Of a DNA stretch of 64,000 nucleotides, positions 51,444-63,430 are shown piece after piece. The stretch comes from Dictyostelium discoideum (Eukaryota): contig CM000151.3 of the NCBI GenBank assembly GCA_000004695.1, forward strand, positions 8,416,001 to 8,480,000. The letters are read 5' to 3'. The stretch's first letter is position 1, and each line of letters opens with the position of its first letter. Under the pieces are notes generated by a model, which did no database searches, was not told where the DNA came from, and worked only from the letters and a program-made list of their open reading frames with translations. The position numbers and the translations under genes were made by a program.

Positions 51444-52920
51444 ATGATATCAATCGAAGAAAATATTAAATACAAAGAAGGAACACTTTCAGTTTTGTCA
51501 TCTGATGGTAAATCATGGAAAAAGAGACATTGTGTATTTAAAAATAGAATTTTATTTATTTTTGAAAATAAAAATGTAAAAATAGTTTTTTTTTATATAT
51601 TCTATTTTTATTTTTTCGATTTTTTTCAAACATAAATTTTTTTTTTTTTCATCCCAAAATCTTTTTATTATTTTTTTTTTTTTCGATCCCAAAATCTTAC
51701 TAACCTTTTTTTTTTTTTTTATTATTTTTTAAAAATCAAATTCAACATCATCAAATTATCAAATTTTATATTTTATACCATTAGCAAGATGTGGATTAAT
51801 ATCAACAGCTATTAGTGGAGGACCAAATGGTAAATCATTTTGTTTCAAGTTATCACATGAAATTGATGAATCAATTCTTTATTGGTTATCTGATGAGAAT
51901 GAAGAATCAATGAAAGAATGGGTAAGAGTATTACAATTATCATGTGCAATTCAAAAGGAACCAGAGAAAGTTCAAGTTAAAGGTAGATCAAAATCTGTAG
52001 CATTTAAGCCAGGAGCAATAGAGATTGCAGGTATAACATCAGATCATAAAGGTTGGTTAAAAAAGTATACATCATCAGGTACATTTAGAAAAACACTTCA
52101 ATGGAAAAAGAGATGGTTCGTACTAAAGGATTTAGTACTCTATTATTATGAAGGACCAGAATCGAATCTAAAAGGAAAGATCTCCATTCCAAATTGGAGT
52201 GTAGAAATTGAAAAAACCATACCCATTGGTTATTGTTTTACATTATCTCATCCAGGTTATACACCAATTACCCTTCAAGCAGAGACAGAAGATGATCGTA
52301 AGAAATGGGTTCAAAAAATTAAAGATAACAATCGTAGCCTTACAAAATCTTTAGCAACTCCAAATGAAATCACAAGACTTTGTGATTGGTTTAAACAATT
52401 GACACAATTGGACATTAAAGAACCATTGGAGTTAGTTTGTAATGCTTCATTTGTTTCAAATATTTTGGAAAAAGTTGGTTTACATGTTGATTTACCTGAC
52501 AGAGATCATAAATCTCAAAGAAGTACTGATAACGATTGGTCTTTGTTAGCTTTTGATAATATAATTAAAGCTTGTCAATTTAAAGGTATTAAATTTGATC
52601 AAACTATTTTACCAGAAGATTTTATAATTGGTGATCCTGTTGTTTTAACTTTTATTATTTCAATAATGAATCATTTTAATCCAAACAGTAAACCATCTTT
52701 AATTATAACTTCAACACCATCAATAAATACAACAAATACAACAAATACAACAAATACAACAAATACAACAAATACAACAAATACAACAACAACAACCACT
52801 ACAACAACAACCAATACAAAAGAGCAACCATCAAATTCATCTGAAACATCACCACAAACAACACCAAGATCAATGGTTTCTGATATATCATCAGTTGCGA
52901 CTGATAGCGTTTCTGATAGT

Positions 52921-53006
<86 letters not shown>

Positions 53007-53463
53007 AATTTCAACAAGTAAAAGTTTAAGTTTTGATAGTAATAAAAAATCAAAAGTATCAACTCCAACAACTACAACAACTGATAAAAAAGATAAAAAA
53101 GATAAAGATACAAAATCAACACCAACTACGCCAAATACAACTTCACCAACTACAATTTCAATAAATCCAACTAATGCACCAACTCCATTGGAACCAAAAC
53201 CAATTGAATCAAAACCAATTGAAACTAAACCAACCGAAACTAAGCCAATTGAAGATATTAAAACAACCAAAACAACATCAACTCCAGTTAAACCACTTAA
53301 TATTCCTCCTCAAAGAACTTCAGATGATGTGGACATAGATATTATGAATTCATTAGATTTTGGTTTTGATGATGCTCCAACACCACCAACAATAACAACA
53401 ACAACTAAAACTTCAGTGGAAGTTGATTTAATTAATGAAATTATTGCAGAAACAGATGATAAC

Positions 53464-53530
<67 letters not shown>

Positions 53531-54296
53531 GCGGTACCGATAATAATAATAATAATAATAGTAAAGTTACAACACCAATTTCTACACCAACTTCAACACC
53601 AGTTAAATCAACATCACCAAGATTTGTTTCACCATATAGAAATTTAAAAAGAGTTGAAACTCATGATGTTTTAGGTGAATTTGATAAAATATTTTCATCA
53701 CTTTCAAAGACAGTTAAAAATTGTGAATTATGTAATGAACCAATCGCAAGTGATCCAATTGAAATACCTTGTGGTAAAGCTTGGCATAGACATCATTTTC
53801 AATGTTGTACTTGTTCAAAATCAATTCTTTGTATTGATGAAGAATTACCATATGTCGTTAGAGATGATAATATTTATTGTAAAGAAGATCATGATAAATT
53901 ATTTAAAGATGGTAATTGTTCAGAATGTAATAAATCATTAATGGTAATGTATTTTTTTTTTTTTTTTTTTTTATAATAATAAATAATTTTAATAAAATAG
54001 TTTTCATTTACTAACTATTTTATTTTTATTTTTAATTAAAAAAAAAATAGATTACATTTGCATATAAAGGAAATTTATTATGTAGAGAACATTATTTAAA
54101 TCATGTTGGTGATATGATTTGCCAAAGTTGTGAAGCACCAATTGGTAATAAATCTTATCAAACCTTTGAAGGTAAAAAATGGCATTTAGAACACTTTAAA
54201 TGTTCATATTGCAGTAAAAAATTACCAGATCCATTAGTTGCTAAATTTAAAAATTCAAAACCTTATTGCGGCACTTGTTCTGTAAAATTATTTTAA
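51444..54296 (+). CDS. PH-PH-LIM domain protein. Model join(51444..51575,~51785..53943,54051..54296), with the first junction uncertain.
   Basis: Exon 1 is PH strands b1-b2 ([34 protein letters not shown]). The large exon continues the same PH domain ([52 protein letters not shown]), then a second PH domain ([36 protein letters not shown]...[10 protein letters not shown]), a Thr/Asn/Pro-rich linker and LIM zinc fingers (CELCNEPI...[18 protein letters not shown]|[23 protein letters not shown]...CGTCSVKLF). The last intron, 53944..54050, is clean (GTAATG...AATAG, phase 0). For the first intron the only available acceptors (51783-51784 or 51787-51788) do not match the phase of the GTAAAA donors at 51576 and 51585. 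Confidence 0.65.
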
Positions 54297-54492: not shown

Positions 54493-55194
54493 ATGAATTT
54501 CATTTTAAAAAATTCAATTAGAAATTTCAGTTCAAGTATATCAAATTATAGTAAAATGACAGGAAAAGTTGTAGTTAAAACCACTAATGCACCAGGTGCT
54601 ATTGGCCCATACAGTCAAGCAATTATTGCTAACAATCAAGTTTTCGTTTCTGGTTGTTTAGGTATTGATAAAGATGTATGTTGTTTTTTTATTACTATTT
54701 ATCATTTTCTTGATCAAAAAAAAAAATAAAAAAAAATAAGAAAGATAAAAAAAGATAAAAAAAAAGATAAAATGAAAAAACTTTAAATTAATAAACTAAT
54801 AATAATTAATTAAATAAATATTATTATTATTTTTAGACTATGCAATTCACATCTGAAACTGATGTTAGTATTCAAACTAAACTTGCTTTAACAAACATGA
54901 AAAACATTGTTGAAGCTGCTGGTTCATCAATGGAAAAAGTTGTTAAAACTACCATCTTATTAAAATCAATGGATGATTTCCAAGCTGTTAACACTGTCTA
55001 TTCTACTTGTAAGTGTTTACAATCAATGATTTATTAAATTAATAATTGGTTATTGATTCATATTAAAAACTAATTAAATTAATTTTAATAAAATAGTCTT
55101 CCCAGTTGACCCACCAGCTAGATCAACCTTTGCTGTTGCTTGTTTACCAAAGAATGCTTTAGTAGAAATTGAAGCTATTGCAATTCACCAATGA
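54493..55194 (+). CDS. RidA/YjgF/UK114-family reactive-intermediate deaminase, mitochondrial-type. Model join(54493..54675,54837..55008,55097..55194).
   Basis: A presequence-like N-terminus, then [27 protein letters not shown] | [58 protein letters not shown] | [28 protein letters not shown]. These are the YjgF/RidA signature blocks. Donors GTATGT at 54676 and GTAAGT at 55009, with acceptors TTTTAG at 54835-54836 and AATAG at 55095-55096. Confidence 0.85.
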
Positions 55195-55397
55195 ACCGAG
55201 GGTAAATCAAATAATATCATCAATTCAAAATTATAAATAATAAATAATAAGTAATAGTTTATTCTATTATTGTAAAAAAGAACTAAAATATAATAATAGT
55301 TTTTATTTTGTTTCCAAATATAAAAAAAAAAAAAAATATTACATAATATACATATTATATATTTATTTTATTGTTTTTTTTTTTTTTTTTTTATCAA

Positions 55398-55680
55398 TTA
55401 ATTATTCATATATTGACAAATAATATTCATTGCTTGACCACCAGGGAATCTACCTAATACACCACTAGTAGATTCAATTTCATTAAAAACTTTAACATTA
55501 TCACTAAAACAATTACTACTATTACTATTATTATTATTATTAATATTATTATCATCATTTTTCTTATTTATAATTTTATCAGCTTCAATCACTTTACAAA
55601 TTGTAAATGGTACTGGTTCATAAGAATGATCACCTGTTAAAACTGGTGTTGAATGATCACCTGTTAAACAAATTGTAAAC

Positions 55681-55714
<34 letters not shown>

Positions 55715-55747
55715 AATTATTAATTATTTTTAATTTTCTCTAATAGA

Positions 55748-55811
<64 letters not shown>

Positions 55812-57197
55812 CTAAACTTACATTTCCTTTGTTTTCATTTTGAGCAATTGCTAATTGTGAAATTATAAAATGTAACATTTTATCAATTTTCTCTAAGAAT
55901 TCAATTTTGAGAGGGGCATTTTTATCATGACCAGCATCATCTACTGCTTTAATATGTAAGAAACCAAATTGATATTTATCATTGTCAACATCCAATATAT
56001 TCTTTAATAAGGTATCAGCTTTTGATTGTAAGTTTGTATGATAATCACCTGTACCACCTTCAGATTCAATCACATCAATCTTTACAGACATACCTAAACC
56101 AGCGATAATACATGTTGGAGCAATCATAAATGCATTCATTCCATACTTTTGTTTAAAGGTTGGTGCCTCAACACAAACACCACAACCACGTAATAATACA
56201 ACATTTGCAACTGGTAAACCTTTTTCTCTTCTCTCTATATTAATTGGATGATTTTCTAATGCTTTTTGAATTTCATCTGATAATTCATTTACAATCTATA
56301 AATTAATAACAGTTAATAATAATTAAATAAAAAATTATTATTAATCATTTTTTATTATTTATTATTTATTATTTATTATTTATTTATTATTATTATTATT
56401 TTTTATTTGTTATTAAAAATAATTAATATATAATATATAAAATTTAAAATTAAAAAAAATATAAAAACTTACTTTACTTGTTAAAATGGAATCATGAGAA
56501 TTAATATCTAAAGGTGTTGCTTTTAATAATGGTAAATTATCTTTTAATGGATCAGTACCAGTGATTGAATCAGTAAGATTTGGACCTCTAACTCTTACAC
56601 CACATCTATGTTCAGTTGCATATTTTACATCTACTCTATAATTTGGAAATGATGGTAATTTAATACCTGTTAAATAATCACATAATGTTGGTCCAAGATG
56701 TTCAAAATTTCTATCTGCTCTTCTTAAAATAACAATTCCACTTGATTTATCTATTGTTGCAAAATTTGACTAAAAAATAAATTATTAAATTAAAAAAAAT
56801 ATAAATTAATATAAAATATAAATTGGTATCAAAATTTAAAATAAATAAAATAAAATATATTAAAAAAAAAATAAAAAAAATAAAAAAAAAAAAAAAATAC
56901 TTTAAAAGCAATATCACCTGGTTGCATATCTAAACCAGCACCCATTGATTCAAATGCACCTCTACCTCTATAATATTTTCTTGGATCATAACCTAAAATT
57001 GAAAGATGTGCTGTATCACTACCACATGCAAATCCTGGTTCAACTGGATCCATTACACCATTTATACCACTTGATGACATTGCATCCATTGTTGGCGTAT
57101 TTGCAACTTGTAATGTGGTTTTTCTTTCATATTGAGGTATTGATGTATCTGCAATACCATCAACCATAACAAATACCATTTTATTATTGTTACCCAT
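55398..57197 (-). CDS. Cofactor-independent phosphoglycerate mutase of the archaeal apgM type (metalloenzyme superfamily plus PhosphMutase domain). Model complement(join(55398..55679,55822..56295,56473..56769,56901..57197)), about 449 aa.
   Basis: Exon 1 has MVFVMVDGIADTS...ANTPTMD...PGFACGSDTAHLSILGYDPRKYYRGRGAFESMGAGLDMQPGDIAFK, the apgM N-terminal signature. Exon 4 has TGDHSTPVLTGDHSYEPVPF, the C-terminal metal-binding TADHSTP block. The introns are 131, 177 and 142 nt, and the last contains a 60-nt (TA)n run. All junctions are phase 0 with GTAAGT/GTATTT donors. Confidence 0.8.
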
Positions 57198-57831
57198 TTT
57201 CTTTCTTTTTTTTTTATTGAAACAATCCACAAGATAAAAAAAAAAAAAAAAAAAAATAAAAAAAAAAAAAAAATTAATTTTTCGTGCGAGAAATTAATTT
57301 TCAAACTATTTGTGCATAAAATTATTTAAAATTTGTTTTAATTTAAAAAAAAATAATAAAAAAATAACTTTTTCTTTTTTAATCAAATTTTAAATTGTTT
57401 ACTTAATCGCACACTTTTCCTATTTTGAATTTTTAAACCTCAAGGTTATCATAATAATATAAAAAATCAAGCAAAAATTTGGAAATTGTTTTTTTTTTAT
57501 TATAATAAAGGTTAGTTCATTTGAACAGTTTTGTTTACTAAAAAAATTATTGTTAAAAAAAATTATTGCTAAAAAAAAAATAAAAATAAAATTATAAAAA
57601 TAAAAAAATAAAAAATTATAATTTTCGAAGTTCATAGATATTTTGGTATGACAGGACAAACTTGTAAAAATTAAAAAAATTTGGGTGAAAAAAAAAATAT
57701 CAAATAAATTTTCTTTTTTTTTTTTTTTTTAATTTTATTTTTAGTAATCAAAAGATCTTTTAATCGATTTGGAGTTATAAAAAATGAATAATGTTACAAT
57801 TAATTTAGTTTTATTTACTATTTTTTTTTTT

Positions 57832-60008: not shown

Positions 60009-61195
60009 ATGACATCAACTACTACTCTTTCAAAGATAGCCATCCGTAAAGCCAAAGTGTCTTCCACCGCCAAATGTGCCGCTGAAGTGACCTCTGCCTC
60101 CGATGAAGCTATTTCTGTCCAAGCCAAACCAAAAAAGACCCTTCATCCCACTGAAGACGATGATTAACTTTATACTACCGAAAGCACGGACCTATCCGAG
60201 GCTGAAGTCAGAGAGAGAGCCTAAGAATTCAAAGACAACTCCATTGAAGCTAAAACCATTGATGCTTTTAAAAAATGATACCACTGCCTTCATCTTCATG
60301 AATCTCTTTACCATCTACTTCCCCCTGTCTCCTCCCCCCAACCCAACCTTGATGACCATTATGGACAATGTACTACATCAAATGAATTATTCCATTTGCT
60401 TCAACCTGACCAATATGAATCAGTGAAGAACAACGATAATTTGAAGGTGTAACTTTGAGGAAGCTTATCCACCGTAACTTTAGACCCAAGACTTTGGTTC
60501 CCGTCAAAACTGACTACGAAGCTGCTAAAATTAAAGTGGTCTAAGCCATTAGCCATTGTAACAACCACTCAGCCTAATATGTTAAAAAAAACATCGAAGC
60601 AAATATGAGTTACAACAATGTAATTAATCCGATGTATCTCATCCATGGTACTGCTGATGTTCAATTAGATTATCTAAGATCAATTTTAGATAATAATATC
60701 CTTGCTTTGTTAAAGATGGTTATACCAGACTGGTTACAAACTGATGTTGCAATCAAGCTCAACCCTCAAACCGATATCACCGAGTGTCGTGAAGCTATCA
60801 CCGAGTTGGTTCTTTTCAATACTGATAAGTTTTCTAGAAGAAGATCTTCCGATTCGGCATCGAATACTGATGAGAAGTTTCCAATGAAAAATAATCATGC
60901 TGTTCCAAATCATAACTCTCAAAGCAGGAATCACTTAGAGCTGAAATATAACCAAAGGTAAAAGATAATAAAATGGTAAATATCAACAAGATAAGAAACA
61001 GTTACATTGTTTATCGTCATAGCAAAGGCTATTGTCTCAATTGTAGTCGTTCAAATTACTCTACATCTTTATGTAATGCCGATACTGTCAAGGTCAAAGT
61101 CAATCCATCAAGTCCATAAGCCAAAAAGCAACAATGACTCGATGAAGGTGATGAGTACAAGTCTAAGATTTTAAATAAAAATTATAAAATTTCAC
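60009..61195 (+). pseudogene. Degenerate copy (copy A) of the repeat-encoded ORF, with multiple in-frame stops and frameshifts.
   Basis: It aligns to the unit B ORF (MTSTTTLSKIAIRKAKVSSTAKCAAEVTSASDEAISVQAKPKKTLHPTEDDD* versus MSSTTTPSKKAIRKAKVSSTAKRAAEVTTASDDAITVQVKSKKTLRPTEVDDE...). There is a TAA at 60164, further stops and frame changes so that three ORF-track pieces (60103.., 60605..) lie in different frames, and C->T-biased divergence at about 80% identity. The 3' part extends about 230 nt beyond the copy B ORF end. Confidence 0.7.
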
Positions 61196-61519: not shown

Positions 61520-63430
61520 TAGACTCAAAACTAAATTAATTTAAAGTTAGTATGAGCTCAACAACGTAACAAATTCGCGCATCTCCATGTAAAAATATTT
61601 CATTTAATTTTAATTTTTTATTTTTTCATTTGAAAAATAAAAAATTAAATTAAATAAAATAAAATTAAATTAAAATTTAAAAAAATAATAAAAATTCTGA
61701 TTTTCGGTTTAGTTTTCATAACGCCCTTACTTTTAATTATCTCTTTTATATATGTTTACTTTTATGATATTAGTCTTTCACTCTTTCTATCCTTCATATT
61801 AAAAAACATTACTTTAAAGATTGGACAGTTTGATTAAAGATTGAACAAATGTGACAATGGATTGAAGATTAGTGTGAGTGAATTTTACACTTTTTTTTCT
61901 AATTTTAACATAAAACAAATACATTAAAACAAATAATTAGATACAATCCTTATATTTCGTATACAATGGCACCTCATGATGAAGAAGTCGACTCTTCAGA
62001 TTAGAGGAATAACAGTAGTATTTAAACAAAATAAAAATGCATTACAATGGCCCTTCAGTTTGCAAGATTAACGCTGTACTGCTTAGGCGGTACAACGACA
62101 CTTCTTACTCACATTATAAACATGCATCTTTTATAAAGTAATATAAAATAAGATTGTATCAATTAATTTAATAATAATGCTCAAATACAAAGACACCACA
62201 ATATAAATTATTAGTGGAATAACAGTTAACATATATTAATACTTATATTAATTATTTAATTAAAAATTAAATTAAATTAAATTAAATAAATTAAATTAAA
62301 TTATAAAATTAAATTATAAAAATTAAATTATAAAATTAAATTATATTTAATAAATTTTATATATAATTGTTGGTGAAAGTCATGTCATCAACTACTACTC
62401 CTTCAAAGAAAGCCATCCGTAAAGCCAAAGTGTCTTCCACCGCCAAACGTGCCGCTGAAGTGACAACCGCCTCCGATGATGCTATTACTGTTCAAGTAAA
62501 ATCAAAAAAGACTCTTCGTCCCACTGAAGTCGATGATGAAATTTATTCAACTGAAAGCACTGATGTATCCGACGTCGAAGTCAGAGAGAAAGTGCCAAAG
62601 AAATCAAAGACCAATTCCATTGAAGCTAAAACCATTGACGCTTTAAAAAATGCTGCCACTGCTGTCATCTTCATGAATCTCTTTACCATCCACTGCTCCC
62701 AGAATGGTGTTGAACCAACCTTGAAGACCATTATGGACAATGGTGCTGCATCAAATGAATTATTTCAATTGCTTCAACCTACCCACAATGAATCAGTTAA
62801 GAACATTGAAGAAGGTGGAGCATTGAAGAAGCTAATACACCGTAACTTTATATCCAAGACTTTGGTTCCATTCAAAACTGACTACGAAGCTGCCAACACT
62901 AAAGTAGTAGAAGCTATTAACCATCGTAACTGCTACTCAGCCCAAGATGTTATAAAAAACATCGAAGCCATTATGAGTTACCACAATGTAATTAATCCGG
63001 TGTATCTAATCCATGGTACTGCTGAAGTTCAATTAGAGTATCTAAGATCAATTTTAGATAATAATATCATTGCTTTGTTAAAGATGGTCGTACCAGACTG
63101 GTTACAAACTGATTAATCAAACTCAACACTCAAACCGATATCACCGAGTGTCGTGAAGCCTTCACCGAGTTGGTTCTTAACAATGCTGATAAGTTCTCGA
63201 GAAGAAGACCTTCCGATTCCGCATCGAATACTGATGAGAAGTTTCCATTAAAAAAGAATCATGCTACTCCAAATCATAACTCTAATAACAGGAATTCCTT
63301 TGATGCACAAGCTGATAAGATTAGAGCTGCAATATTACCCGAAATAAGAAAAGACTCTAAGGTAGACCTCAAAAAGATAAGAAGCAGCACAGCGGCGAAA
63401 ATCAACACTTTAAAGCACCTTTAAATCCAA
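61520..63430 (+). repeat. Repeat unit B, the compact version of unit A: upstream module 61520..62381 plus the ORF.
   Basis: Collinear with unit A apart from the minisatellite copy numbers. See the unit A evidence. Confidence 0.75.
62382..63424 (+). CDS. Repeat-element-encoded ORF (copy B, best preserved). 245 codons to a TAA at 63117, then about 100 further codons in frame after the stop (63120..63424).
   Basis: ATG at 62382 (MSSTTTPSKKAIRKAKVSSTAKRAAEV...HGTAEVQLEYLRSILDNNIIALLKMVVPDWLQTD*). Relative to copy A (..LQTDVAIKLNPQTDITECREAITELV..), copy B has an indel converting GATGTTGCAATCAAGCTCAACCCTC to GATTAATCAAACTCAACACTC, which creates the TAA. Downstream ...KLNTQTDITECREAFTELVLNNADKFSRRRPSDSASNTDEKFPLKKNHATPNHNSNNRNSF... 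continues the homologous frame (ORF 63170..63424). Basic N-terminus. I recognise no enzymatic motifs. It may be a nucleic-acid-binding ORF1-like protein of a retroelement. Family not identified. Confidence 0.5.

What the first reader, a model, noticed from the sequence alone, without database searches (positions are those of the whole stretch)
55398..57197. Archaeal/bacterial apgM-type cofactor-independent phosphoglycerate mutase encoded by a spliced eukaryotic gene
The four-exon minus-strand gene encodes both diagnostic ends of the apgM family (N-terminal VMVDGIADTS...PGFACGSDTAHLS...GRGAFESMGAGL...PGDIAFK and C-terminal TGDHSTPV...PVPF), joined by canonical Dictyostelium introns. It is therefore a bona fide nuclear gene, not contamination. 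This family is characteristic of archaea and some bacteria and is sparse in eukaryotes, so its presence suggests ancient retention or horizontal acquisition. Its catalytic role here (glycolytic iPGM or another phosphomutase) is open.
Basis: partly seen in the sequence, partly recalled or inferred. Interest (0 to 1): 0.5.

Follow-up and report, generated by a model that had tools for sequence, protein, structure and literature searches.

The report
Dictyostelium's archaeal-type phosphoglycerate mutase gene
This is a real, already annotated Dictyostelium discoideum nuclear gene (DDB_G0277763) for an archaeal-type phosphoglycerate mutase-like enzyme; the family is widespread in eukaryotes and inherited vertically, so the gene is ordinary, although no eukaryotic member has been tested biochemically in the literature I could search.

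Summary
A four-exon minus-strand gene at 55398-57197 encodes a 449-aa protein with all the quoted motifs. It is identical to XP_642503.1 / DDB_G0277763 of D. discoideum AX4. It belongs to the ApgM family: Pfam PF10143+PF01676, TIGR00306 above its cut-off, and best solved relatives the archaeal ApgM structures. Phosphopentomutase and GpmI match about 30 orders of magnitude worse.

The evolutionary reading is only partly right. The family is not sparse in eukaryotes. Relatives at about 50-58% identity over the matched region occur in Mucoromycota, land plants, green algae, cryptophytes and oomycetes; more distant members occur in Carpediemonas and Bodo. In my neighbour-joining tree all eukaryote-type sequences separate from archaea and bacteria in 100/100 bootstraps.

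All three Dictyostelium introns share position and phase with orthologues in a fungus, and also in a plant and cryptophyte (intron 1) or an oomycete (introns 2 and 3). That argues for vertical descent from an early eukaryote, not horizontal acquisition. A 2025 paper already reports eukaryotic APGM as a LECA clade sister to Asgard archaea.

The activity remains inferred. Catalytic residues are intact, but no eukaryotic member was found to be characterised. Dictyostelium also has a dPGM. Related eukaryotic members are fused to non-glycolytic domains.

The parts
56901..57197 (-). Exon 1 (aa 1-99). It carries the start ATG at 57197-57195, the metal ligand Asp13 and the nucleophile Ser60 (codon 57020-57018) in the motif CGSDTAH.
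   Evidence: residue conservation.
56770..56900 (-). Intron 1: 131 nt, GT..AG, phase 0, 3.8% G+C. Its position after K99 is shared with D. purpureum, Rhizomucor, Arabidopsis and Guillardia.
56473..56769 (-). Exon 2 (aa 100-198). It encodes most of the PhosphMutase cap domain (PF10143 covers aa 43-217), including the RRADR and EHR motifs.
56296..56472 (-). Intron 2: 177 nt, GT..AG, phase 0, 4% G+C. Its position after K198 is shared with D. purpureum, Rhizomucor and Aphanomyces.
55822..56295 (-). Exon 3 (aa 199-356). It encodes the second half of the alkaline-phosphatase-like core, with the DDAGHD motif (Asp317, His321).
55680..55821 (-). Intron 3: 142 nt, GT..AG, phase 0, 6% G+C. It contains a (TA)30 microsatellite at 55749-55809. 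Its position after N356 is shared with D. purpureum, Rhizomucor and Aphanomyces.
55398..55679 (-). Exon 4 (aa 357-449 plus the TAA stop at 55400-55398). It carries the TGDHSTP...GDHSYEPVPF motifs (Asp364, His365, His374). It also contains an Asn-rich low-complexity insert, encoded at about 55512-55565.

Best explanation
Shown: the locus is the D. discoideum AX4 gene DDB_G0277763. It is the dictyostelid orthologue of the eukaryotic APGM clade. It is a two-domain enzyme of the alkaline-phosphatase superfamily, with a core domain interrupted by the PF10143 cap. It was inherited vertically from an early eukaryotic ancestor rather than acquired by dictyostelids.

From the literature: the clade descends from the archaeal (Asgard) side of eukaryote ancestry.

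Inferred mechanism: as in archaeal ApgM and the analogous GpmI, two divalent metal ions would be held by Asp13, Asp317, His321, Asp364, His365 and His374. They would activate Ser60, which takes the phosphate from 3-phosphoglycerate to form a phosphoserine intermediate. The glycerate would reorient in the cap domain, held by basic residues R115, R116, R119, H153, R154 and R234. The phosphate would then return to O2 to give 2-phosphoglycerate, without 2,3-bisphosphoglycerate. The protein has no N-terminal extension, so it is probably cytosolic, where it would run beside the organism's cofactor-dependent PGM.
For: Identity:
- The protein is an exact match to XP_642503.1.

Family:
- Pfam gives PF10143 and PF01676.
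- TIGR00306 scores above its cut-off. The archaeal model NF003104 scores 391 bits, against about 225 for the homoserine-kinase-like model and 184 for PhpG.
- PDB sequence search finds archaeal ApgM at E=4e-70.
- The AlphaFold model (pLDDT 85) matches 3kd8 and 2zkt at E=1e-35 to 1e-37.

Catalytic set:
- D13, D317, D364, H365 and H374 are invariant in 46/46 eukaryote-type and 59/59 prokaryote sequences. H321 is invariant in 46/46 eukaryote-type and present in 56/59 prokaryote sequences. S60 is Ser or Thr in all of them.

Eukaryote-wide clade:
- Named hits include dictyostelids, Mucoromycota, land plants, a green alga, Guillardia and Aphanomyces, Carpediemonas and Bodo.
- Four unnamed members lie on contigs with eukaryotic marker genes.
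- The split between eukaryote-type and prokaryote sequences is found in 100/100 bootstraps. Dictyostelids get 100, Chloroplastida 97 and fungi 98.

Vertical descent:
- Three of three introns are shared in position and phase with Rhizomucor. Intron 1 is also shared with Arabidopsis and Guillardia, and introns 2 and 3 with Aphanomyces.
- Under a uniform model, 9 Rhizomucor introns among about 1293 sites give roughly 3e-7 for three coincidences (my calculation).

Literature:
- APGM is reported as a LECA clade sister to Asgardarchaeota at 89% UFBoot and patchily retained (PMC11976288).
- The two best-scoring named prokaryotic representatives are Asgard: Baldrarchaeia at 42% and Promethearchaeota at 38%.
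Against: - No eukaryotic member of the clade was found to be biochemically characterised.
- The protein scores below the curated equivalog cut-offs of the archaeal PGM models: 391.5 against 489.
- D. discoideum already has a dPGM (PMC2964296).
- Leaves of the Arabidopsis ipgam1 ipgam2 double mutant (GpmI-type genes) show no detectable iPGAM activity, although genes annotated as iPGAM and believed to be ApgM-type (At3g30840, At4g09520) remain (PMC3193020).
- All 46 eukaryote-type sequences carry K99 where 59/59 prokaryotes have Arg. They carry C58 where the commonest prokaryotic residues are Pro, Ala, Val or Ile.
- Two eukaryotic sub-clades are fused to non-glycolytic domains, a DAO-type FAD oxidoreductase and a GGACT/AIG2-like domain.
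- My NJ tree and a signature-column count do not by themselves identify Asgard as the sister group.
Confidence: 0.75

Rival explanations
1. The eukaryotic APGM clade, including the Dictyostelium gene, keeps the phosphoserine and two-metal chemistry but has been recruited to a non-glycolytic phosphotransfer reaction. That reaction could be a mutase, phosphatase or kinase-like step on another phospho-metabolite, possibly linked to amine or gamma-glutamyl-amine metabolism.
For: - Four representatives of separate 50%-identity clusters are single ORFs fusing ApgM to a DAO-type FAD oxidoreductase. They form one clade with 97/100 support.
- Nine cluster representatives form another clade with 82/100 support. 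Four of them, including Bodo saltans CUG87924.1, carry an N-terminal GGACT/AIG2-like domain.
- Some distant stand-alone relatives of the DAO part are annotated gamma-glutamylputrescine oxidoreductase.
- The clade has eukaryote-specific invariant residues K99 and C58.
- The gene co-exists with a dPGM in Dictyostelium.
- No residual iPGAM activity is detected in the Arabidopsis GpmI double mutant.
- Other branches of the same family have non-PGM assignments, namely TIGR02535 'proposed homoserine kinase' and PhpG.
Against: - Each fusion appears to be a single event in one lineage, and the Dictyostelium protein stands alone.
- The protein scores far higher against archaeal PGM models than against the homoserine-kinase-like or PhpG models.
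- The basic residues of the cap domain are conserved with archaeal enzymes.
- R99K is a conservative change.
- The Arabidopsis assay used leaf extracts only, and its authors assume residual PGAM activity remains.
- The DAO partner shows no co-distribution with APGM.
Confidence: 0.22
2. Dictyostelids acquired the gene by horizontal transfer from an archaeon or bacterium, and it gained introns afterwards.
For: The family is best known from archaea. D. discoideum has documented bacterial-like genes, for example its dPGM has Chlorobia-like best hits.
Against: - The nearest relatives are eukaryotes at about 50-58% identity over the matched region, against at most 42% for any prokaryote.
- The eukaryote-type group is separated from prokaryotes in 100/100 bootstraps.
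- All three introns sit at positions shared with other eukaryotic supergroups.
- A scan of 185,579 prokaryotic species genomes for the clade's motifs YATEHRCG and CGSDTAH[LM]S found only one exon-like fragment in a MAG.
Confidence: 0.02
3. The gene is a contaminant, an assembly artefact or a pseudogene.
For: None found.
Against: - Codon and intron composition are typical of the surrounding 23% G+C window.
- The reading frame is intact.
- Orthologues at 96% identity or close to it occur in other D. discoideum isolates, D. firmibasis and D. citrinum, and at 65-79% in other dictyostelids.
- Flanking genes are typical Dictyostelium genes.
Confidence: 0.01

Closest known systems
Archaeal ApgM (cofactor-independent PGM; solved structures P. 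horikoshii PH0037 2ZKT and T. acidophilum 3KD8/3IDD)
   Same: It shares the two-domain architecture, the fold (Foldseek E 1e-35 to 1e-37, TM up to 0.86 normalised to the target), the full metal-ligand and Ser nucleophile set, and the RRAxR and HR motifs of the cap domain.
   Different: Identity is only about 36-42% on trimmed columns. The protein scores below the NCBIfam equivalog cut-offs. It carries eukaryote-specific residues (K99 for Arg, C58, D176, D318) and an Asn-rich insert before the C-terminal helix.
Eukaryotic APGM clade (Santana-Molina et al. 2025, PMC11976288; Arabidopsis genes annotated as iPGAM, At3g30840/At4g09520)
   Same: The window protein is a member: about 50-58% identical over the matched region to plant, fungal, cryptophyte and oomycete proteins, with shared intron positions and shared signature residues.
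   Different: Nothing essential differs. Plants carry an extra insert of about 20 columns and a longer C-terminal linker. Some lineages are fused to DAO or GGACT domains, and Dictyostelium is not.
GpmI / iPGAM (bacterial, plant, nematode and trypanosomatid cofactor-independent PGM)
   Same: Same superfamily. The accepted view is an analogous phosphoserine, two-metal mechanism and the same reaction.
   Different: The cap domain and size differ (about 510 aa). It is found only at fold level, with E about 1e-6 and TM about 0.35. No NCBIfam GpmI model is hit.
Phosphopentomutase (DeoB)
   Same: Same Metalloenzyme (PF01676) core.
   Different: Foldseek E is about 1e-7, TM 0.40 and 12-15% identity. 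No family-model hit was found.
ApgM-family side branches: TIGR02535 'proposed homoserine kinase', NF003242, and PhpG (CMP-5'-phosphonoformate--3-phosphoglycerate transferase)
   Same: They are homologous over the full length.
   Different: They score much lower (225, 225 and 184 bits against 391 for the archaeal PGM model) and far below their cut-offs.

Membership tests
ApgM family (TIGR00306 / PF10143+PF01676) | Metalloenzyme core (PF01676) interrupted by the PhosphMutase cap domain (PF10143) | tested here: met
   PF10143 covers aa 43-217 (E=3e-48) and PF01676 covers aa 6-385 (E=1e-34).
ApgM family (TIGR00306 / PF10143+PF01676) | Score above the curated family cut-off | tested here: met
   TIGR00306 scores 349.5 bits against a cut-off of 320.
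ApgM family (TIGR00306 / PF10143+PF01676) | Score above the cut-off of an archaeal PGM equivalog model, which would assign the exact function | tested here: not met
   NF003104 scores 391.5 against 489, and NF003160 scores 241 against 468. Membership is therefore at subfamily level only.
ApgM family (TIGR00306 / PF10143+PF01676) | Alkaline-phosphatase-type catalytic set: Ser nucleophile plus Asp/His ligands for two metals | tested here: met
   D13, S60, D317, H321, D364, H365 and H374 are present and conserved across 105 aligned sequences. Assigning these residues to the metal sites rests on general knowledge of the superfamily.
ApgM family (TIGR00306 / PF10143+PF01676) | Fold closest to solved ApgM structures rather than other superfamily members | tested here: met
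   3kd8, 3idd and 2zkt match at E 1e-35 to 1e-37. The next best is phosphopentomutase at 2e-7.
ApgM family (TIGR00306 / PF10143+PF01676) | 2,3-BPG-independent, metal-dependent interconversion of 3-PG and 2-PG | not testable with these tools
   This needs an enzyme assay. No eukaryotic member was found to be characterised in the searched literature.
Eukaryotic APGM (LECA-derived) clade | Groups with eukaryotic sequences to the exclusion of archaeal and bacterial ApgM | tested here: met
   NJ tree of 105 sequences and 406 columns: the split is found in 100/100 bootstraps. It is found again in 100/100 in a second tree.
Eukaryotic APGM (LECA-derived) clade | Intron positions shared across eukaryotic supergroups | tested here: met
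   Intron 1 is shared with Rhizomucor, Arabidopsis and Guillardia. Introns 2 and 3 are shared with Rhizomucor and Aphanomyces. Column and phase are identical in each case.
Eukaryotic APGM (LECA-derived) clade | Sister relationship to Asgard archaea | tested here: inconclusive
   The best-scoring named prokaryotes are Asgard. However, NJ topology and signature columns do not single them out. The literature reports 89% UFBoot.
GpmI-type iPGM | Match to GpmI family models or structures better than to ApgM | tested here: not met
   No GpmI model is hit at E<=0.01. Foldseek gives E about 1e-6 and TM about 0.35.
Phosphopentomutase (DeoB) | Match to DeoB models or structures better than to ApgM | tested here: not met
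   No DeoB model is hit. Foldseek gives E about 2e-7 and TM 0.40, against 1e-37 for ApgM.
Horizontally acquired prokaryotic gene in Dictyostelium | Closest relatives are prokaryotic, and other eukaryotes lack orthologues | tested here: not met
   

The most novel reading that the evidence does not exclude
The whole eukaryotic APGM clade (dictyostelids, plants, early-diverging fungi, oomycetes, cryptophytes, kinetoplastids and metamonads) may not be a redundant glycolytic mutase. It may be an uncharacterised phosphotransferase with a different substrate. Several observations hint at this: independent fusions to a GGACT/AIG2-like domain and to a PuuB-like DAO oxidoreductase, the invariant Arg-to-Lys change at residue 99 and Cys58 next to the nucleophile, co-existence with dPGM or GpmI, and the lack of residual iPGAM activity in Arabidopsis GpmI double mutants.
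Probability: 0.22. Interest if true: 0.55.

Novelty: already known. Interest (0 to 1): 0.2.

Why it matters
As stated, the finding adds nothing new. The gene is in the reference annotation, and the presence and ancestry of ApgM-type enzymes in eukaryotes were published in 2025. Its value is as one more example of an enzyme of likely archaeal-host origin kept patchily in eukaryotes. The shared intron positions found here give independent, non-phylogenetic support for its antiquity. The only open point of some interest is biochemical: I found no eukaryotic APGM that has been assayed, and the fusions and clade-specific substitutions leave room for a non-glycolytic role. Dictyostelium, being genetically tractable, would be a convenient organism in which to test that.

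Tried and rejected
1. I scanned 185,579 prokaryotic species genomes with an alignment of eukaryotic sequences. The derived patterns (YATEHRCG, CGSDTAH[LM]S) were specific to the eukaryotic clade. They found only L001, an isolated exon-like fragment flanked by stop codons at the end of an 'Acidimicrobiaceae' MAG contig. It is probably eukaryotic DNA mis-binned. This used the only scan of that collection and yielded no prokaryotic relatives.

2. I tried to confirm the Asgard sister relationship myself. NJ with Kimura distances attaches the eukaryotic stem deep among the archaea. Of 24 eukaryote-signature columns, no sampled prokaryote shares more than 5, and Asgard sequences are not enriched. 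This is inconclusive. No maximum-likelihood software was available, and no Heimdall or Hodarchaeales sequences were sampled.

3. I asked whether the DAO fusion partner co-occurs phyletically with APGM. Its nearest stand-alone relatives are unnamed metagenomic proteins and ascomycete oxidoreductases at 36% identity or less, so there is no co-distribution.

4. I tried to assign the DAO partner to a specific enzyme. Only generic hits to the FAD-binding motif were found.

5. Literature searches for DDB_G0277763, Q86AW2, At3g30841 and PF10143 found nothing functional. The supplements of PMC11976288 are not held.

6. Phosphopentomutase, GpmI, contamination and pseudogene readings were considered and rejected.

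7. Gene neighbourhoods of eight eukaryotic loci showed no recurrent neighbour.

Full report
**What is in the sequence.** Reading 55000-57600 on the minus strand and splicing at the only in-frame GT..AG sites gives four exons: 57197-56901, 56769-56473, 56295-55822 and 55679-55398. Together they make a 1350-nt CDS and a 449-aa product. The introns are 131, 177 and 142 nt long. All are phase 0 and 4-6% G+C, against 29% in the exons and 23% for the whole window. The protein is identical, end to end, to XP_642503.1 / EAL68555.1, 'hypothetical protein DDB_G0277763 [Dictyostelium discoideum AX4]' (UniProt Q86AW2), on an 8.48-Mb record. The observation and coordinates are therefore exact, and the gene model is the one already in the reference annotation. 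Other D. discoideum isolates, D. firmibasis and D. citrinum fall in the same 90% cluster.

**Family.** Pfam finds the PhosphMutase cap domain (PF10143, aa 43-217, E=3e-48) inserted in the Metalloenzyme core (PF01676, E=1e-34). NCBIfam places the protein in TIGR00306 'apgM', at 349.5 bits against a cut-off of 320. The best model is the archaeal PGM equivalog NF003104 at 391.5 bits, which is below its cut-off of 489. The family's side branches score much lower: the proposed homoserine kinase TIGR02535 at 225 bits, NF003242 at 225 and PhpG at 184. The closest solved structures are the ApgM proteins of Pyrococcus horikoshii (2zkt) and Thermoplasma acidophilum (3kd8, 3idd), at E=4e-70. An AlphaFold2 model (mean pLDDT 85.4, pTM 0.85) matches these at Foldseek E=1e-35 to 1e-37. 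Phosphopentomutases and GpmI-type mutases appear only at E=2e-7 to 1e-5 with TM about 0.35-0.40.

**Catalytic residues.** The catalytic set expected for this superfamily is complete: Asp13, Ser60, Asp317, His321, Asp364, His365 and His374. These residues are essentially invariant in 46 eukaryote-type and 59 prokaryotic sequences. So are the basic residues of the cap domain: R115, R116, R119, H153, R154, R220 and R234.

**Distribution.** The claim that the family is sparse in eukaryotes does not hold. Every named protein among the 120 best hits in a 5.8-billion-protein database is eukaryotic:
- other dictyostelids, at 65-79% identity;
- many Mucoromycota and Zoopagomycota, at 52-58%;
- land plants from ferns to Arabidopsis, at about 50%;
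- a green alga, the cryptophyte Guillardia (56%) and the oomycete Aphanomyces (52%).

An exhaustive HMMER search of 1.84 billion cluster representatives shows a step in the scores. About 70 representatives lie at 42-62% identity. The typical prokaryotic proteins of 405-420 aa then follow at 34-40%. The upper group includes the metamonad Carpediemonas and the kinetoplastid Bodo saltans. Four unnamed members that I checked lie on contigs with eukaryotic marker genes:
- one with RRM, SET and Snf7;
- one with Tim17 and ETF-QO;
- one with SUN, EMP24 and a nucleoporin TPR domain;
- one with clathrin light chain.

The best prokaryotic representative is a Baldrarchaeia (Asgard) protein at 42% identity and 318 bits. 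The next named one is Promethearchaeota at 38%.

**Phylogeny.** I built a neighbour-joining tree with Kimura-corrected distances, 105 sequences, 406 columns and 100 bootstraps. It separates all eukaryote-type sequences from all sampled archaea and the one bacterium in 100/100 replicates. Dictyostelids (100), Chloroplastida (97) and fungi (98) are each monophyletic. A second tree gives the same split at 100/100. My tree does not resolve which archaea are sister to the eukaryotes, and a count of eukaryote-signature columns does not single out Asgard. The published maximum-likelihood analysis reports APGM as a putative LECA clade nested in Archaea, sister to Asgardarchaeota (89% UFBoot). It describes the enzyme as patchily retained because of replacement by bacterial-type PGMs (PMC11976288).

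**Independent test: intron positions.** I mapped the exon structure of five orthologues on their genomic loci and projected it on the protein alignment.
- Intron 1 (after K99, phase 0) lies in the same column and phase in D. purpureum, Rhizomucor pusillus, Arabidopsis and Guillardia theta.
- Intron 2 (after K198) is shared with D. purpureum, Rhizomucor and Aphanomyces.
- Intron 3 (after N356) is shared with the same three species.

The flanking columns are gap-free or lie next to invariant motifs. With 9 Rhizomucor introns among about 1293 possible sites, three out of three coincidences has a probability of roughly 3e-7 under a uniform model (my calculation). Proto-splice-site preferences would raise this but not rescue chance. 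Introns shared between Amorphea and Diaphoretickes imply that the gene, already interrupted, was present in their common ancestor. This excludes a dictyostelid-specific horizontal acquisition.

**Function: what is shown and what is inferred.** The fold, domain architecture and catalytic residues are shown. The reaction is inferred from homology to characterised archaeal enzymes (general knowledge: M. jannaschii, P. furiosus and S. solfataricus ApgM are active PGMs). The inferred reaction is 3-PG to 2-PG through phospho-Ser60 on a two-metal centre, independent of 2,3-BPG. Several observations keep this from being certain:
- I found no biochemical study of any eukaryotic member.
- D. discoideum also has a cofactor-dependent PGM (PMC2964296).
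- In Arabidopsis, leaf extracts of the ipgam1 ipgam2 double mutant (GpmI-type genes) have no detectable iPGAM activity, although At3g30840 and At4g09520 remain (PMC3193020). Those two genes are annotated as iPGAM. That they are the ApgM-type genes rests on my own knowledge of the Arabidopsis annotation, not on a test here.
- All 46 eukaryote-type sequences have Lys99 where 59/59 prokaryotes have Arg. They have Cys58, two residues before the nucleophile, where the commonest prokaryotic residues are Pro, Ala, Val or Ile.
- Two eukaryotic sub-clades carry domain fusions that are not glycolytic.

**The fusions.** Four cluster representatives are uninterrupted ORFs of 981-1202 aa joining ApgM to a C-terminal DAO-type FAD oxidoreductase. 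They form one clade with 97/100 support. Nine further representatives form a clade with 82/100 support; four of them, including Bodo saltans, have a recognisable N-terminal GGACT/AIG2-like domain. The DAO part is only generically amine-oxidase-like. Some of its distant stand-alone relatives are annotated gamma-glutamylputrescine oxidoreductase. Each fusion seems to be a single event, and the Dictyostelium protein is not fused. I treat this as a lead for a rival, non-glycolytic reading (about 0.2), not as evidence against family membership.

**Verdict.** The gene is annotated, and the evolutionary story was published in 2025, so the finding is already known and of low interest. The residual open question is the biochemical role of the eukaryotic clade.

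**Limits.** My trees are distance-based. Taxon labels for many metagenomic sequences are unknown. The Asgard sister relationship rests on the literature. The Dictyostelium genome outside this window could not be searched for GpmI.

Noticed in passing
P0138, P0140, P0150, P0153 (from; not in the window): Single ORFs of 981-1202 aa fuse a eukaryote-type ApgM domain to a C-terminal DAO-family FAD oxidoreductase. They form one clade (97/100 NJ bootstraps) and come from unidentified organisms in metagenome and Logan contigs. All keep the catalytic residues.
   Followed up: partly
P0179 (Bodo saltans CUG87924.1), P0186, P0165, P0261; related P0178, P0184, P0187, P0191, P0254: An N-terminal GGACT/AIG2-like (gamma-glutamyl cyclotransferase-like) domain is fused to ApgM in a clade of nine cluster representatives (82/100). 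Both fusion partners belong to families with members acting on gamma-glutamyl-amines, judging from annotation only.
   Followed up: partly
window 56901-57197, codons for aa 58 and 99: There are eukaryote-specific invariant residues. Lys99 is found in 46/46 eukaryote-type sequences where 59/59 prokaryotes have Arg. Cys58 is found in 46/46 where the commonest prokaryotic residues are Pro, Ala, Val or Ile. Asp176 and Asp/Glu318 are also eukaryote-specific.
   Followed up: partly
window 55749-55809: A perfect (TA)30 microsatellite lies inside intron 3 of the gene.
   Followed up: yes
window 55512-55565 (aa ~395-412): Exon 4 contains an Asn-rich low-complexity insert ([18 protein letters not shown]). 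It has low model confidence and varies in length between Dictyostelium isolates and species. It is absent from archaeal proteins.
   Followed up: partly
window 54493-55194 (+ strand): A convergent neighbouring gene with introns encodes a RidA / endoribonuclease L-PSP family protein, with a possible N-terminal presequence. Its stop codon lies about 200 bp from the stop codon of the ApgM gene.
   Followed up: partly
window 51910-53976 (+ strand): A 688-aa ORF encodes a PH domain and a C-terminal LIM domain, separated by long poly-Asn and poly-Thr tracts.
   Followed up: partly
window 60605-60961 and 62367-63116 (+ strand): Two ORFs share a stretch of about 45 aa (…NVINP.YLIHGTA.VQL.YLRSILDNNI.ALLKMV.PDWLQTD). 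A second short motif (…A.IFMNLFTI…) recurs at 60103-60426. There are no Pfam hits. This could be a repeated element or tandem paralogues.
   Followed up: no
L001:1501-1563 (CALAYR010000155.1, 'Acidimicrobiaceae' MAG, contig end): An isolated fragment encodes ACGSDTAHLSLLGYDPR, flanked by stop codons. It looks like a single exon of a eukaryotic APGM gene, which suggests eukaryotic DNA mis-binned into a bacterial MAG.
   Followed up: partly
L005:565-1104 (Guillardia theta): A His_Phos_1 (dPGM-superfamily) gene lies immediately upstream of, and divergent from, the Guillardia ApgM-type gene.
   Followed up: no
L009:9247-11892: In one unnamed compact eukaryotic contig, the ApgM-type gene is followed by a convergent, slightly overlapping glycogen phosphorylase gene.
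   Followed up: no
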